A stretch of 64,000 nucleotides of DNA from Zootoca vivipara (Eukaryota), in the NCBI RefSeq assembly GCF_963506605.1, contig NC_083277.1, forward strand, positions 5,704,001 to 5,768,000, read 5' to 3'. This document shows positions 3,001-42,000 of the stretch, one piece after another. Each line of letters starts with the position of its first letter. Position 1 is the first letter of the stretch. The position numbers were made by a program.

Positions 3001-6000
3001 AAGCGGTGCTTGGTTGAAGGTTTTTGGTTCATGAATCTCACGAGTTATACTGCTAATGTTACTGCTAATGTTAATAATTAATTGCACTGTATCTGTTAGT
3101 TACAGGGTAGAGTGGGAAGCACCCAGGTTTTGGGGCAGCCCAGTGCTGGTCACGGGTTTGCACACAGGATAACAACTTAGACTTGGCTGCACACCCAGAA
3201 AGGATGTATGAGAGAATAGGGGAATTTTGGAACATCTCAACTGGTCACAATGACCTAAGACGTCCCATATATGGCTTTGCTGATTTTTGCAGAAAAATAG
3301 AGAAGTTTACTAACCTGGGCAAGGGAGGGCCTCTACCTCGTGGATTGGTTAATTTTCTACTGCAGTATATGAATATGTAATACCTGATGTAATGCTTTAC
3401 GCCTATTTTGAAAAGGGTATAAAACCCAAAGCCACCAAGTATTCGGGGCTCAGCTCCTTTGGGAAATCTGCTGTGCCTTATTGCTTTAGCAATAAATTAC
3501 TTTGATTTCTCCAACTCTGAGTCTGCAAGTCTTTGAGAAGTTTGATGCCAAGGTTCCCAGGTATCCAGGTGTCTCGCTACATTACTTTCAGTATACTCTG
3601 CTTGGCCTCTGCTTCCTCCGACCGATAGAGATTTCCTGAGGGACTCTAGACGGGCTCTAGATAACCCAGAAGGGTATTAGAAGTATTATACTTATGACAA
3701 CACATTGCCTTGGAGTGTCTACAAAGAAGGGAATGGTTTTCTTCTTCCAGGGAATCAGTGAGCTTTGATGACGTGTCTGTGCATTTCACCAACGAGGAAT
3801 GGGCCTTGCTGGATCCGGGAGAGAGAGCTCTGTACGATGAAGTCATGGAGGAGATTCGTGAGATGATGGCATCTGTGGGTAGGGATCCTTTTTGCCTTAA
3901 TCAATATAGCTAGTGAAGGTGTGATTGTTGGTGAGATCACAAGAAGTGAGATCACGAGAAGGCGAATTGGTAATTTCTCCTGGACTAAAGAACATTTGAA
4001 GAATCCTGTTGGATCAAAGCAAAGGCCCATGGAGTCCATGATTCTGTTCTCACGTTTGCCAACCAGATGCCCAGAGGGAGCCATCAAAGAATTGACCCAT
4101 TGGCTATGAGTTACTTGCCTGGCTCTGACCTACTTAACATGTGCTGTTGCTATGGCTACGACTTCCTTAGCCATGTGGTTAGGCTCGGTGGTTTGCTACT
4201 CCGCCGTTAGCTAGGTCTTGTGGTCAGCTACTTCCTTAGCTGTTAGCTCTAGCAGGAAATAACAACAGGTGCAGAGATGTGCTGAAGGTTGTGTTCGTGA
4301 CTTGCTTCAAGAAGTTGTAAGACTGGAATGGTTCTGTCCAGTTCTGGTCAAGCGCCTCGTATTCAGGGTGAACTTGCCTTTTTGATAGGGTTGCACTTAC
4401 AACAGCATGCCATAGAAACAAAAGGCTGAAGAGGTCTGCTGTGTACTCGTTGTGCTTTATTGCATTGGGGGAGAGTCCTAGTCTGCTTAAGTGCATAGCT
4501 TGCTAAGCAGTGTACAACACAGAATAGATGGAGTGGCAGGGATCTGACCCTCCTCTCTGTCCCCACCGACTTACAGAGAGAATAGGAGGAGCCAACTGAT
4601 TTGGGAACTGAGCCTACACAGGAGGGTTGTCCGCGAGAGGGGGGAGGTCTTGGGGAAATGTCACCCAACAGCCACCTTAGGGTTTTGGCTCCCAAACATG
4701 TTCTAAGACCCTTGTCCAGGAAATATGCACCTGTTATCCTGCAGCACAATTACTTCTGGATTCTGCATGTGGGAGGGAGATGAAAGAGTCATGAGATATA
4801 AGGGATTTCCGGCCCAGCCAGCCTCTGTTAATCTTATTCTGCCCCCTGAGTAGGAATGCTCCCAAGGGCCTCCTTTTCCCCATAAGATGGGTGTGGGGAC
4901 GCCTTGCTCTCTCCCAGAAGTTGCTGGATCACACCATCCTCTCTGTCAAATGTCCATGTTTGATGGAGCTGATGGGAGTTATTTCAGTAGCCTTTGGAGA
5001 GCCAAAGGTTCCCAATTCCTGCCTTAAGGACTTTCAACTGAAAAATGAAAAACACCCCAAACTCTTTATCCTGTTTCTCTATATTAGTGTTTCCCAACCG
5101 GGGCCCCAGGATATTCCAGGGTGGTCCCAGGTGAAAATTATGTAAATCGGGGCGGGGCACAGCACAATGCTGGGGGGAGGCACAGATGGAAGTGACAATA
5201 AAAGCAGGGAAATTATTTTTCCCCCCTTTAAAAAATCCCTATTGAGTATTTACTTGGCCAGTCATTAGTAGGTAAGGGGGCAGCCCACAAGGGAGCATCT
5301 AGTAAATAGCTAAGTGTCTACTCAGAAGAAAGCAGCACTGAGTTCAGTGCACCTTACTCCCAGGTAAGGGTTTGTGGGGCTATAGTTTTGTCTAGGCAGC
5401 CAGGATCTTTTCACACCAGGTCAGTGAGGACCACTTGTTTTTTTAAATTCTCCCATATATACAGAACTCCCTGTGTGCCTTTTGCAGACCCTCCCAAGTG
5501 TCTCTATTTTCCAGTTCCGGTCCTGGATTTACAGAAGTCATTCCAGTTTCTGATTTGATCCCAAATGTGCCACTTTTCTTTAGGACGTCCCTATTTTCAC
5601 CAGAGAAATGTTGAAGGGTATGGAATTATCCCCCTGCTGAACCATCTGAATGCAACCCTGTAAAGGGAAGTTTTTAAAAAATCTTCCAGAGTAGCTGGGG
5701 CAACCAATCAGATGGGTGGGGTATTACCCATAATAGTAAAATTATTATTATGGAATAGGACATCCCTATTTTCATCAGATAATTGTTGGAAGGTGTGCTT
5801 TTGGGCTGTTATCTGTAGGTTTCCCCCTTTGTGTCAAACAACTGGGGTCAAATAAGTGCTGTTGACTTTTTATAATACATGGAAGATGGATCTCCCGGGA
5901 GGTTCTAGACCAGGCACCCCCAAACTGCGGCCCTCCAGATGTTTTGGCCTACAACTCCCATGATCCCTAGCTAACAGGACCAGTGGTCGGGGAAGATGGG

Positions 6001-39000: not shown

Positions 39001-42000
39001 GGCAGAGGAACGCAGAAGGTGGGGAGGGAACCCACTGCTTCTCAGGTTAACGAAAATCAGATAACGCACACAGGGGACAAACCTAAAGAATGTTTGGAGG
39101 GTGGAAAGAACGTCAGTGACAGAGCCTACCTTATTTTTCATAAAAGATGTCATACAGCAGAAAAGCCATATAAATGCTGGGAGTGTGGAAAAGGCTTCAG
39201 TCGGAAAGAACACCTTACTCTGCATCAAAGAATTCATACAGGCGAGAAACCTCATAAATGCAGGGAGTGTGGAAAGAGCTTCAGGCACAGTGACTCCCTC
39301 ACTAGGCATCAAAGAATTCATACTGGGGAGAAACCTTATAAGTGTTTGGAATGTGGAAAGAGCTTTATTCAGTGTAGCGTTCTCACAAGACATAAAAGAA
39401 CTCATACAGGGGATAAACCTTATAGATGCTGGGAGTGTGGAAAGAGCTTTAGTGACAATGGCACTCTTACGAAACATCAAAGAACTCACACAGGGGGAAA
39501 ACCTTATAGATGTTTGGAGTGCGGAAAGAACTTCAGTCACATAAAGTCCCTTACTTTCCATAAAAGAAGGCATGCAGGGAGAAAACCTTATGAATGCTTG
39601 GAATGTGGAAAGAGCTTTAGTGTGCGTAGCCAGCTCAGAAGACACATAAGAATTCATACAGGGGAGAAACCTTATAAATGTTTGGAGTGCGGAAAAAGTT
39701 TCAGCCGGAGTGGCCACCTTTCACAACATCAAGGAACTCACACAGGGGAAAAACCTTATAAATGCTTGGCGTGTGACAAGTGTTTTAGTCAGAGTGTTCA
39801 CCTTACTCTGCATCTAAGAACTCATACAGGGGAAAAACCTTATAAGTGTTCAGAGTGTGAGAAGAGCTTCAGTCAGAATAGTCACCTCATCATGCATAAA
39901 AGAACCCATACAGGGGAGAAACCTTATAGATGTTTGGAGTGCGGAAAGAGCTTCACTGTCAGTTCATCCCTTTCTAAACATCAAAGAATTCATACAGGGG
40001 AAAAACCTTATGAATGTTTGGTGTGTGGAAAGAACTTCAGTCGCCTAGATTCACTAACTTTGCACAAAAAAAGGCATACAGGGGAGAAACCTTATAAATG
40101 CTGGGAGTGTGGAAAGAGCTTTAGTGGCTCCCTTACTCAGCATCTAAGAACTCATACAGGGGAGAAACCTTATAAATGTTTGAAGTGTGACAAGAGTTTT
40201 AGTCAGAGTGGTCACCTTACTCAGCATCTAAGGACCCATACCGGGGAGAAACCTTATAAATGCTCGCTGTGTGGAAAGAGCTTCAGTGGCTCCCTTACTC
40301 AGCATCTAAGAACTCATACAGGGGAAAAACCTTATAAATGTTTGAAGTGTGACAAGAGTTTTAGTCAGAGTGGTCACCTTACTCAGCATCTAAGAACTCA
40401 TACCGGGGAGAAACCTTACAATTGCTTGGAGTGTGGAAAGAACTTCACTTACAGATATTCCCTTAACTCGCATCAAATAATTCATAGAAGGGAAACATCT
40501 TAAGCTTGGAAGGTGGAAAAATATCCAGTGATCTCAAGAGGTCCTGTAGAGAGCAAATGAAAGATTCTACTCAGTGTTAGAATTCCCTTCCTTATCTCCA
40601 GCTTTTACAATAGACCCTTGCTTCTTCTGAAGCCTTTGGATCCCAGTATTCCTTCCATTTTAGAGGGGAAAGGGGCTTTTGCTTTCAACATGCTTTTTCA
40701 GTATGGAAGCAGTTTGGCCTCGGTCCTGTATACCTGAAGGAGCGTCTCCACCCCCATCATTCAGCCCGGACACTAAGATCCAGCACCGAGGGCCTTCTGG
40801 CAGTTCCCTCATTGCGAGAAGTGAGGTTGCAGGGAACCAGACAGAGGGCCTTCTCGGTAGTGGCACCGCCCTGTGGAACGCCCTCCTAGCAGATGTCAAG
40901 GAAATAAGCAACTATTCTACTTTTAGAAGACAACTGAAGGTGGCCCTGTTTAGGGAAGTTTTTTATGTTTGATGCTGTACTGTTTTTAATATTCAGTTGG
41001 AAGCCGCCCAGAGTGGCTGGGGAAACTCAGCCAGATGGGCGGGGTATAAATAATAAATTATTATTATTATTATTATTATTATTATTATTATTATTATTAC
41101 CTGTAAGCCAGTGTGAGGGACGGGCAGGTGTTTGAGTGGTGGGTGGGATAGGTAGTGGAAGATTTACAGGGAGGTTCAGTGCCACCTCTGAGGCAAGAGG
41201 TGGTCATAGAGGAGAGCCAAACTGAAGGCAGGAGAGGGGTTGCAGGAAGTCTCCGAGGTGGAAGAGAAGGTCCCAGAAAGAGTCTTGCCATTGGACTCTC
41301 CTCAAACCCCTCACCCACTGTCTCCACTGACAACGAGGGGCATAAAGCAATAGCAACAAGGATCGCCTCTTTCCATATGAACCTACCTGGACCATGAGGT
41401 CATCTTCTGAGACCCTTCTTCATGTGCCTCCTCCGTGAGAGGCCTGGAGTGTGGCAACACGATAACGGGGCCTTTTCTGCAGTGGCTCCCCATCTGTGGA
41501 ATACTTTCCTCAGGGAGGTTCACCTGGAGCCTAGGCACTAGGCAAAAGCCTTTCTCCTTAACCAGGTTTCTGGCTGATTTACATCTAATGCCCTTTTAGA
41601 ATGTGGGGTTTTTGGTGTGTGTGTGTGTGTGGTTTTTGTTACAATTATATATTTTGCGTTATGTTGTGATTGTATCCTGTGAACCGCCCTGAGTTCCTCC
41701 CAGGGCTGGAAAGGGGTTCATTTCACCTTCCGTTTGCTAGTAAAACTGAATTAGTTTGTCGGGAAATGACACATGTCTAGAAATCGTTTCACCAACATGA
41801 AAAGTTTGGAAAGCTCTGCATTAGTAGGAGAACCTGAGGTCTCTTGTGAGCCTGTGCATTGGTATAATATGGTGGTCCCTGTTAGTTCACCATATTTTTT
41901 CTTTTAACATTAGCAGAAGTGTTAATTATATCCCTTGCTGATGTAACCAAGTGCTTTGCCAATAAAGACCTGAACTTCCTATTGTTTGCCCACATTGGGC

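What the first reader, a model, noticed from the sequence alone, without database searches (positions are those of the whole stretch)
3751..40503. Repeated KRAB inactivation while the zinc-finger arrays stay open
Seen: four adjacent units lack a usable KRAB through four different lesions. A has a 128-nt (+1) KRAB exon and no ATG exon, B has no KRAB exon, C has the KRAB exon deleted, and D has TGG>TAG. Their ZF exons (about 0.85-1.6 kb) keep acceptors in the same phase, and every indel I could align inside the arrays is a multiple of 3. In-frame downstream ATGs exist (3845, 36657/36660, MQ(Q/E) in the A, B and C spacers). Known: KRAB recruits TRIM28 for silencing. Inference: these may be KRAB-less DNA-binding competitors of intact paralogs such as F, or simply young pseudogenes.
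Basis: partly seen in the sequence, partly recalled or inferred. Interest (0 to 1): 0.7.

Follow-up and report, generated by a model that had tools for sequence, protein, structure and literature searches.

The report
Decaying KRAB zinc-finger gene copies, lizard cluster
Four neighbouring copies in a lizard-like KRAB zinc-finger gene cluster have lost a usable KRAB start, but the damage looks like the ordinary birth and decay of duplicated genes, not a repeated invention of KRAB-less regulators.

Summary
The window holds a same-strand tandem cluster of at least seven KRAB zinc-finger units (A to G). Its best protein matches are squamate, at 54-60% identity, so I do not take it for human.

- A has a 128-nt KRAB exon and no ATG exon.
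- B has no KRAB exon.
- C keeps the flanks of the KRAB exon but not the exon.
- D has TAG in place of Trp.

Two claims fail.
- The lesions are not four independent events. B is a young chimera, 98-99% identical to C at its 5' end and 96-98.5% identical to A at its 3' end. It arose by unequal crossover and then lost a further 2.35 kb, including the promoter-like element.
- Not all arrays stay open. C carries a double stop (TAATAA) and a 2-nt frameshift deletion in its last finger.

The selection tests are inconclusive (6 of 15 and 0 of 9 synonymous changes). Neutral simulation shows that open arrays are expected only if the lesions are young, about 1.5-2.5% divergence or less. The DNA-contact residues of A-D barely overlap those of the better-preserved E and F (2 of 84 comparisons), which argues against competition with them.

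The most likely reading is ordinary birth-and-death pseudogenisation. A KRAB-less product from A or D cannot be excluded without expression data.

The parts
1989..2655 (+). Unit A: GC-rich promoter-like element, with a SINE-fragment insertion at 2445-2515
   Evidence: Homologous to elements upstream of C, D, E, F and G. CpG o/e is 0.52, against 0.37 for the whole window. Promoter function is inferred, not shown.
3751..3878 (+). Unit A: KRAB-A exon, 128 nt, with one extra A after the acceptor. In-frame ATG at 3845.
   Evidence: Pfam KRAB 60.1 bits. No ATG exon found upstream.
7056..7903 (+). Unit A: ZF exon. 6 canonical fingers plus 2 broken internal fingers (His>Tyr; a 15-nt deletion that removes a Cys pair).
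9222..9352 (+). Unit B: junction of a 2.35-kb deletion relative to C 21392-23747. It removes the promoter-like element and the place of the KRAB exon.
   Evidence: B 8734-9222 ~ C 20905-21392 (94%) and B 9352-9849 ~ C 23747-24248 (88%)
18278..19503 (+). Unit B: chimeric ZF exon, C-like up to about 18496 and A-like from about 18849. 11 canonical fingers plus the same 2 broken fingers as A.
21978..22482 (+). Unit C: GC-rich promoter-like element
   Evidence: CpG o/e 0.57.
22483..23073 (+). Unit C: A-rich, unrelated filler where A has 2656-3984, including the KRAB exon
   Evidence: No KRAB by tblastn.
28825..30113 (+). Unit C: ZF exon. 11 canonical fingers, then TAATAA at 29931-29936, then 2 finger remnants in frame. 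A 2-nt deletion at the last His codon removes the normal stop.
33859..34483 (+). Unit D: GC-rich promoter-like element
35102..35176 (+). Unit D: ATG exon, 25 open codons, donor AAG|GTAGG
36564..36690 (+). Unit D: KRAB-A exon, 127 nt, with TAG at 36612-36614 in place of Trp. ATGATG at 36657-36662.
   Evidence: Pfam 56.8 bits with X at the stop.
38894..40503 (+). Unit D: ZF exon. A degenerate first finger, 14 canonical fingers and 2 short C-X2-C-X10-H fingers (a 6-nt deletion copied by a 168-nt duplication).
45901..46073 (+). Unit E: ATG exon split by a 92-nt repeat insertion (45964-46055). The second ATG at 46059 is kept.
48313..48439 (+). Unit E: open KRAB-A exon
51679..52610 (+). Unit E: ZF exon, 7 canonical fingers
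56910..56984 (+). Unit F: ATG exon
57942..58068 (+). Unit F: open KRAB-A exon
58715..60438 (+). Unit F: ZF exon, 18 canonical fingers
63770..63844 (+). Unit G: ATG exon of a seventh unit that runs off the window

Best explanation
This is a tandem cluster of KRAB zinc-finger genes evolving by birth and death. Each unit consists of a GC-rich promoter-like element, a small ATG exon, a 127-nt KRAB-A exon and one zinc-finger exon.

Units A, B and C form one clade whose members no longer have the ATG exon. A keeps a KRAB exon that a 1-nt insertion has shifted. C lost the exon to a deletion with replacement. B was made recently by unequal crossover between the finger arrays of A and C, and then lost 2.35 kb including the promoter-like element. 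D is a separate, very recent nonsense allele of an otherwise complete gene.

The arrays are still mostly open because the lesions are young, not because selection demonstrably maintains them. C has already begun to decay inside its array.

Shown: the anatomy, the lesions and the chimeric origin of B. Inferred: promoter function, the order and age of events, and loss of function.
For: - Gene model. The ATG-exon motif occurs 4 times (D, E, F, G) against 0 expected. All six ZF exon acceptors are aligned. An annotated lizard protein shows the same KRAB-to-spacer junction...VASLGDCWG.
- Tree of intron end plus spacer: (A,(B,C)), (D,E) and F, with all 3 inner branches supported.
- B is 98-99% identical to C over 17698-18496 and 96-98.5% identical to A over 18849-19500 and the 3' flank.
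- Non-coding divergence is 3.0-3.4% between B and C.
- B's deletion is nested over the place of C's missing exon.
- C has a double stop and a 2-nt frameshift.
- Broken internal fingers: A 2 of 8, C 1 of 13, D 2 of 16, against 0 of 25 in E and F; Fisher P = 0.067.
- The B-C 5' coding part has 0 synonymous and 9 non-synonymous differences.
- Neutral simulation, substitutions plus indels at 1.5% divergence per lineage: P(open) = 0.16 for A, 0.078 for B, 0.095 for C, 0.045 for D. With substitutions only: 0.57, 0.41, 0.45, 0.34.
- The KRAB peptides of A and D are as close to E and F (66-69%) as E and F are to each other (71%), so the lesions are recent.
- Literature: between 43% and 72% of primate KZNF loci are estimated to be coding, the rest being pseudogenes (PMC3126818, passages). 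Many tandem-ZFP pseudogenes exist in vertebrates (PMC4592553, passages).
Against: - The A-B 3' coding part has 6 synonymous and 9 non-synonymous differences (dN/dS 0.34). That leans towards constraint, though P = 0.13 against a 24% expectation.
- With indels at the non-coding rate, joint survival of the A and B frames since the crossover is about 0.16 x 0.078 = 0.013. This would favour constraint if coding DNA were as indel-prone as introns.
- The promoter-like elements of A and C keep CpG o/e of 0.52 and 0.57, within the range of D-G (0.45-0.65), so they show no sign of decay.
- The acceptors, and the donors of the KRAB exons of A and D, are intact.
- An in-frame ATG in the spacer is a shared derived feature of A, B and C. 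D and E have ACG there.
- There are no expression data. The species or locus is absent from the protein collection, with best hits of 60% and 54% identity.
Confidence: 0.68

Rival explanations
1. One or more lesioned units, most plausibly A or D, still make a zinc-finger protein without a working KRAB. Translation would start at internal AUGs (A 3845 or the spacer MQQ; D 36657/36660 after the early stop). The product would bind DNA without recruiting TRIM28, as a competitor or with a new role.
For: - In-frame ATGs are present.
- A and D keep the promoter-like element, the splice sites and long open arrays.
- A-B dN/dS is 0.34.
- Survival of the frames is unlikely if the lesions are older than about 1.5-2.5% divergence.
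- D's stop lies 41 codons after the first ATG. From recall, not from a call, this is a zone where re-initiation and escape from mRNA decay are known.
- KRAB-less members of KRAB-ZNF clusters exist, such as ZNF16 (PMC2865497, passages).
Against: - No selection test is significant.
- In A, an out-of-frame ATG at 3768 opens a 32-codon frame that runs across 3845. This was worked out by hand from the frame translations.
- B lacks any promoter-like element and C is truncated.
- Fingerprints are shared with E or F in only 2 of the 84 comparisons (42 fingers, each against E and F), so competition with those paralogs is not supported.
- The scaffold is damaged in internal fingers.
Confidence: 0.15
2. 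The single-base lesions (the extra A in A's KRAB exon, TGG>TAG in D) are assembly errors or segregating null alleles. In many individuals, at least D would then be a normal KRAB zinc-finger gene.
For: - D is complete in every other respect: ATG exon, splice sites, a KRAB scoring 56.8 bits, and an array of 16 fingers, 14 of them canonical.
- Each lesion is one base.
Against: - A also lacks the whole ATG exon, which no base error explains.
- The extra A makes a run of only two A's, which is not a typical homopolymer error.
- Reads and population data were not available.
Confidence: 0.12
3. The ZF exons of A, B and C serve as alternative 3' exons. They would be joined by read-through transcription to a KRAB-exon donor of an upstream unit, so that one KRAB feeds several arrays.
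For: - All acceptors are kept in the same phase.
- All units lie on the same strand, about 10-11 kb apart.
- The donor of A's KRAB exon is intact.
Against: - The acceptors of B and C are only 1-2% diverged from each other, so their conservation carries no weight.
- A's own KRAB frame has no start.
- There are no transcript data.
- No such arrangement was seen in the annotated lizard proteins I read (2 of the 120 listed).
Confidence: 0.05

Closest known systems
Duplicated (unprocessed) pseudogenes in KRAB-ZNF clusters, as catalogued in primates (PMC3126818; passages read)
   Same: Tandem same-strand units with a modular layout of a 5' effector exon and one 3' finger exon. They turn over by unequal recombination. 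A large share of loci carry disabling lesions, and some copies miss the KRAB or the ZNF part.
   Different: This is a squamate-like cluster with no KRAB-B exon and no SCAN exon in these units. Pseudogene status is inferred from sequence only. The source paper reports that gain or loss of fingers is rare in pseudogenes, whereas A and B differ by one 84-nt finger.
KRAB-less members of KRAB-ZNF clusters, e.g. human ZNF16 at 8q24.3 (PMC2865497; passages read)
   Same: A finger-array gene that lies among KRAB-ZNF paralogs and lacks the KRAB box.
   Different: ZNF16 is described as part of an old mammalian paralog group, with its own N-terminal sequence, and it is expressed. Here the KRAB-less state is young, no replacement start exon was found, and conservation across species could not be tested.
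KRAB-less splice isoforms of KRAB-ZNF genes, e.g. ZNF71 (PMC8038441; search listing and abstract start only)
   Same: A finger array produced without KRAB from a KRAB-ZNF locus.
   Different: Those arise by alternative transcripts of an intact gene. Here the KRAB coding capacity is damaged in the DNA.

Membership tests
KRAB zinc-finger protein (KZFP) genes | KRAB-A box (Pfam PF01352) on its own 5' exon | tested here: met
   A 60.1, E 60.3 and F 59.1 bits; D 56.8 bits with X at its stop. Not met for B and C: no tblastn hit better than noise.
KRAB zinc-finger protein (KZFP) genes | Uninterrupted reading frame from a start codon through KRAB into the array | tested here: not met
   A has no ATG exon and a 128-nt exon. 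B and C have no ATG or KRAB exon. D has TAG at 36612-36614. The feature is met exon by exon for F, and for E from its second ATG. The joined model was not built.
KRAB zinc-finger protein (KZFP) genes | Tandem C2H2 fingers with TGEKP-type linkers in one 3' exon | tested here: met
   Canonical fingers number 6, 11, 11, 14, 7 and 18 in A-F.
KRAB zinc-finger protein (KZFP) genes | KRAB binds TRIM28 and silences | not testable with these tools
   No assay was possible. No complex prediction was attempted, because no reference TRIM28 of this species is at hand.
Duplicated pseudogene | Disabling lesion in the ancestral coding sequence | tested here: met
Duplicated pseudogene | Neutral evolution since the lesion (dN/dS near 1, scaffold residues not spared) | tested here: inconclusive
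   A-B has 6 synonymous of 15 differences (P = 0.13) and B-C has 0 of 9 (P = 0.065). Broken fingers 5 of 37 against 0 of 25, P = 0.067.
Duplicated pseudogene | No stable transcript or protein | not testable with these tools
   No transcript data. No near-identical protein in the collection.
KRAB-less ZNF gene (ZNF16-like) | Own promoter and start codon with an open frame | tested here: inconclusive
   A, C and D keep a promoter-like element; B does not. Internal ATGs exist, but out-of-frame ATGs lie upstream of them.
KRAB-less ZNF gene (ZNF16-like) | Conserved as KRAB-less across species | not testable with these tools

The most novel reading that the evidence does not exclude
The A/B/C clade lost its canonical start and, in the same ancestor, gained an in-frame AUG in the spacer (ACG>ATG). 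A, and perhaps D by re-initiation after its early stop, would then be translated as KRAB-less finger proteins. These would occupy sites without silencing them: a recurrent route by which a squamate KZFP cluster turns repressors into blockers.
Probability: 0.1. Interest if true: 0.5.

Novelty: new member of a known kind. Interest (0 to 1): 0.22.

Why it matters
If the ordinary reading holds, the locus is a clean worked example, outside mammals, of how KRAB zinc-finger clusters turn over. Unequal crossover inside finger arrays creates chimeric copies. The 5' effector exons and promoter are lost first. The long finger exon stays open for a while simply because it is young. This is a useful caution: an open zinc-finger exon of about 1 kb is weak evidence of function when copies differ by only a few percent. 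If KRAB-less products were in fact made, the locus would offer a natural test of competition between silencing and non-silencing paralogs.

Tried and rejected
- Annotation of the same species. Protein searches with the ZF exons of B and F found no near-identical protein. Best hits were 60% (Hemicordylus capensis) and 54% (Podarcis raffonei). The absence of A/B/C proteins therefore says nothing.
- Pfam on the long non-finger ORFs (7 sent, 0 families at E<=0.01). They lie in GC-rich or repetitive DNA that is open on both strands. I rejected them as extra exons.
- Pfam on A 2655-3572 read through with X gave 0 families. The LTR-like look is by eye only.
- A possible SCAN exon. Squamate relatives carry SCAN, but Pfam found no family in any of the 7 long non-finger ORFs sent. 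I did not scan the window specifically for SCAN.
- dN/dS on the two recently duplicated coding stretches is not significant in either direction.
- CpG decay of the promoter-like elements shows no difference between lesioned and better-preserved units.
- Whether loss of the ATG exon is one ancestral event in A/B/C. A and C share derived sequence after the GC-rich core, but C and B have lost the decisive stretch, so this stays open.
- Joined spliced proteins were not built or searched. Models were handled exon by exon.
The phage, plasmid and E. coli collections are irrelevant here. Supplementary files of papers were not opened; Table S5 of PMC3126818 may bear on finger gain and loss in pseudogenes.
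Full report
**What the window is.** The 64-kb window has no N. It carries six long zinc-finger open frames on the + strand, here called A to F:

| Unit | Open frame | Canonical C2H2 fingers |
|---|---|---|
| A | 7016-7900 | 6 |
| B | 18238-19500 | 11 |
| C | 28785-29930 | 11 |
| D | 38782-40500 | 14 |
| E | 51597-52607 | 7 |
| F | 58651-60435 | 18 |

A seventh unit, G, begins near 62700 and runs off the end. Protein searches with the zinc-finger (ZF) exons of B and F gave squamate proteins as best hits. 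B matched Hemicordylus capensis at 60%, followed by Zootoca and Podarcis; F matched Podarcis raffonei at 54%. I therefore do not take the contig for human. No near-identical protein is in the collection, so these searches give no annotation or expression evidence for any unit.

**Gene model.** I worked exon by exon. The joined spliced protein was not built or searched.
- Each complete unit starts with a GC-rich element, about 60% G+C, with CpG o/e of 0.45-0.65 against 0.37 for the window. It is conserved upstream of A, C, D, E, F and G. I read it as the promoter region. That is an inference.
- Next comes a small coding exon with a pyrimidine-rich acceptor and 25 open codons that end ...ACC ATG CGT CCA GCT GAG|GTAGG. 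The motif occurs 4 times in the window (D 35159, E 46056, F 56967, G 63827) against 0 expected by shuffling.
- Next comes a 127-nt KRAB-A exon in phase 0 to 1, with Pfam KRAB at 59-60 bits for A, E and F.
- Last comes one ZF exon whose acceptor AG|GA(G/A)ATG is aligned in all six units.
- An annotated lizard relative shows the same KRAB-to-spacer junction...VASLGDCWG, which supports the exon join.
- There is no KRAB-B exon. Pfam found no family in any of the 7 long non-finger ORFs sent.

**Check of the four lesions.**
- A: the KRAB exon is 3751-3878, 128 nt, with one extra A two bases after the acceptor. The KRAB frame itself is open for 42 codons. Pattern search, sensitive blastn and tblastn all find no ATG exon in A.
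- D: all exons and splice sites are present. Codon 17 of the KRAB exon is TAG (36612-36614) where A, E and F have TGG. With X at the stop the exon still scores 56.8 bits.
- C: sequence homologous to both sides of A's KRAB exon is present (A 2005-2655 ~ C 21978-22482; A 3985-4120 ~ C 23074-23218). The 1330 nt between them in A is replaced in C by 592 nt of A-rich, unrelated sequence.
- B: the intergenic sequence (B 8734-9222 ~ C 20905-21392, 94%) abuts intron sequence (B 9352-9849 ~ C 23747-24248, 88%). About 2.35 kb present in C is therefore missing in B, including the GC-rich element.

First, the four lesions are not four independent events.
- B is 98-99% identical to C from 17698 to 18496, which covers the intron end, the spacer and the first finger.
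- B is 96-98.5% identical to A from 18849 to the stop and into the 3' flank.
- Its identity to C falls to 72-86% past 18500.
- The whole segment from 7246 to about 18800 is repeated as 18795 to about 29350. This is what an unequal crossover between the finger arrays of A and C produces.
- Non-coding divergence between the copies is 3.0-3.4% for B-C. For the A-B flank it is 6.5%, or about 3.6% by hand from the window counts once a 300-nt hot stretch is left out.
- B therefore inherited C's 5' region, and its larger deletion lies over the place of C's missing exon.
- A tree of intron end plus spacer gives (A,(B,C)), (D,E) and F, with all 3 inner branches supported.
- A and C also share derived sequence directly after the GC-rich core that D-G lack. 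Loss of the ATG exon may thus be one ancestral event, but the decisive stretch is gone from B and C.

Second, C's array does not stay open.
- TAATAA replaces the Tyr-Lys codons at 29931-29936.
- Two more finger remnants follow in frame.
- The last has a 2-nt deletion at the final His codon, which also removes the normal stop.
- That deletion is not a multiple of three.

**Is the openness of the arrays more than chance?**
- From 167 substitutions and 19 indels in four non-coding alignments of the recent duplicates, I took an indel-to-substitution ratio of 0.114 and 54% transitions. 4 of the 19 indels were multiples of three. Stretches with large insertions were left out.
- Neutral simulation on the present sequences gives P(open) below 0.05 beyond about 2.5% divergence per lineage for A, 1.7% for B, 2% for C and 1.4% for D.
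- At 1.5% divergence P(open) is 0.16, 0.078, 0.095 and 0.045 for A, B, C and D. Counting substitutions only, it is 0.57, 0.41, 0.45 and 0.34.
- The open frames therefore say that the lesions are young relative to the terminal branches (0.072 for A, 0.13 for D), or that constraint persists. They cannot separate the two.
- The 126-nt KRAB frame would stay open with P = 0.68 (substitutions only) even at 9% divergence. Its openness in A is therefore uninformative.
- The KRAB peptides of A and D are as similar to E and F (66-69%) as E and F are to each other (71%). This fits recent lesions.

**Selection since the last duplication.**
- In the A-like part of B (188 codons) there are 6 synonymous and 9 non-synonymous differences, dN/dS 0.34. 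In the C-like part (74 codons) there are 0 and 9, five of them clustered in eight codons of B's spacer.
- Against simulated expectations of 24% and 26% synonymous, the tail probabilities are 0.13 and 0.065. Neither is significant, and they point in opposite directions.
- The in-array indels between A and B are 33 and 84 nt. The 84-nt indel is one repeat unit and keeps the frame by its mechanism.
- Broken internal fingers occur in A (2 of 8), in B (the same two), in C (1 of 13, behind the stop) and in D (2 of 16, one 6-nt deletion later duplicated). E and F have none (0 of 25). With B and the shared degenerate first fingers left out, Fisher gives P = 0.067; counted as events, 4 of 37 against 0 of 25, P = 0.12.

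**The competitor idea.** Identical 4-residue contact fingerprints (helix positions -1, 2, 3, 6) shared with E or F number 0 of 6 for A, 0 of 11 for B, 1 of 11 for C (with F) and 1 of 14 for D (with E). On this simple measure the lesioned arrays would not read the same sites as the better-preserved paralogs in the window. Paralogs outside the window are untested.

For internal starts:
- In A, an out-of-frame ATG at 3768 opens a 32-codon frame that runs across the ATG at 3845. This is my own reading of the frames.
- The spacer ATG of A, B and C is a shared derived change where D and E have ACG.
- D's stop lies 41 codons after the first ATG and 43 nt before ATGATG. Re-initiation is conceivable there, from recall rather than from a call.

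**Comparison with what is known.**
- Primate catalogues report about 1000 KZNF loci per genome, of which 43-72% are estimated to be coding. They also report copies that miss KRAB or ZNF parts (PMC3126818, passages).
- Recurrent loss of effector domains is described for the family (PMC2443715, one figure-legend passage).
- Reviews state that vertebrate genomes hold many tandem-ZFP pseudogenes and that redundant copies decay (PMC4592553, passages).
- A KRAB-less gene, ZNF16, sits in the human 8q24.3 KRAB-ZNF cluster (PMC2865497, passages).
- KRAB-less isoforms are reported for ZNF71 (search listing only).
- PMC10547255 and its preprint were read only for passages on dN/dS.

The locus is thus a new instance of a known process, not a new kind of system.

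**Verdict.** The framing as repeated, independent KRAB inactivation with preserved arrays is only partly right. The best-supported reading is birth-and-death evolution: one young nonsense allele (D), one 5'-truncated clade (A, C) and one crossover chimera (B), with decay already visible in C. I put this at about 0.68. A functional KRAB-less product from A or D stands at about 0.15, and assembly error or polymorphism of the single-base lesions at about 0.12. Expression, population and cross-species data are needed and were not available here.

Noticed in passing
45901-46073: The ATG exon of unit E is split by a 92-nt insertion (45964-46055). The insert is a copy of a short repeat found many times in the window, e.g. 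92% identical to 8053-8139. The upstream ATG now opens a 26-codon frame that ends inside the insert, and only the second ATG (46059) still leads into KRAB. The 'intact' neighbour E is therefore also altered.
   Followed up: partly
8155-8622, 19743-20207, 41101-41515, 52727-53188: A block of about 420-470 nt lies 110-600 nt downstream of the stops of A, B, D and E. It is 84-91% identical between units whose introns and exons are only about 68-75% identical. It is absent after C and F. By eye it looks TE-derived. The cause could be gene conversion or constraint and is unexplained.
   Followed up: partly
58831-60485: F's array contains an internal tandem duplication of nine fingers (offset 756 nt, 85% identity). 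A frameshifted finger remnant follows its stop codon (from about 60440).
   Followed up: partly
16539-17950 and 26885-28496: The intron just upstream of the B and C ZF exons holds a minisatellite of period 219-222 nt and a GC-rich stretch with CpG o/e of 0.55-0.61. A, D and F have nothing like it at this place. It could in principle act as an internal promoter, which is untested.
   Followed up: no
61458-62078 and 12147-12350: A reverse-transcriptase-like open frame (Pfam RVT_1, E = 0.024, below the cut-off), with an 81% identical fragment inside the 3.1-kb insertion (10480-13615) upstream of B. Probably LINE debris.
   Followed up: partly
7926-8144; also 759-828, 16012-16141, 21728-21863, 33457-33552, 36815-36952, 37894-37996, 43693-43837: A repeat of about 200 nt with inverted halves, present in at least ten copies in both orientations. 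It looks MITE- or SINE-like. A GC-rich repeat of about 360 nt also recurs (8763-9114, 9853-10187, 14650-15008, 20934-21284, 48833-49195, 56182-56563).
   Followed up: no
2655-3572: About 0.9 kb unique to unit A lies between the promoter-like element and the KRAB exon, with an AATAAA. It looks LTR-like by eye. It has no Pfam match and no other copy in the window. It occupies the place where D-G carry the ATG exon.
   Followed up: partly
35685-36032 and 40743-41093: A 350-nt element is inserted in D's intron between the ATG exon and the KRAB exon. An inverted copy, 84% identical, lies just downstream of D's ZF exon.
   Followed up: no
298-757 and 31088-31528: Sequence upstream of A matches sequence downstream of C at 82%. 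This suggests a further, C-like unit just before the window.
   Followed up: no
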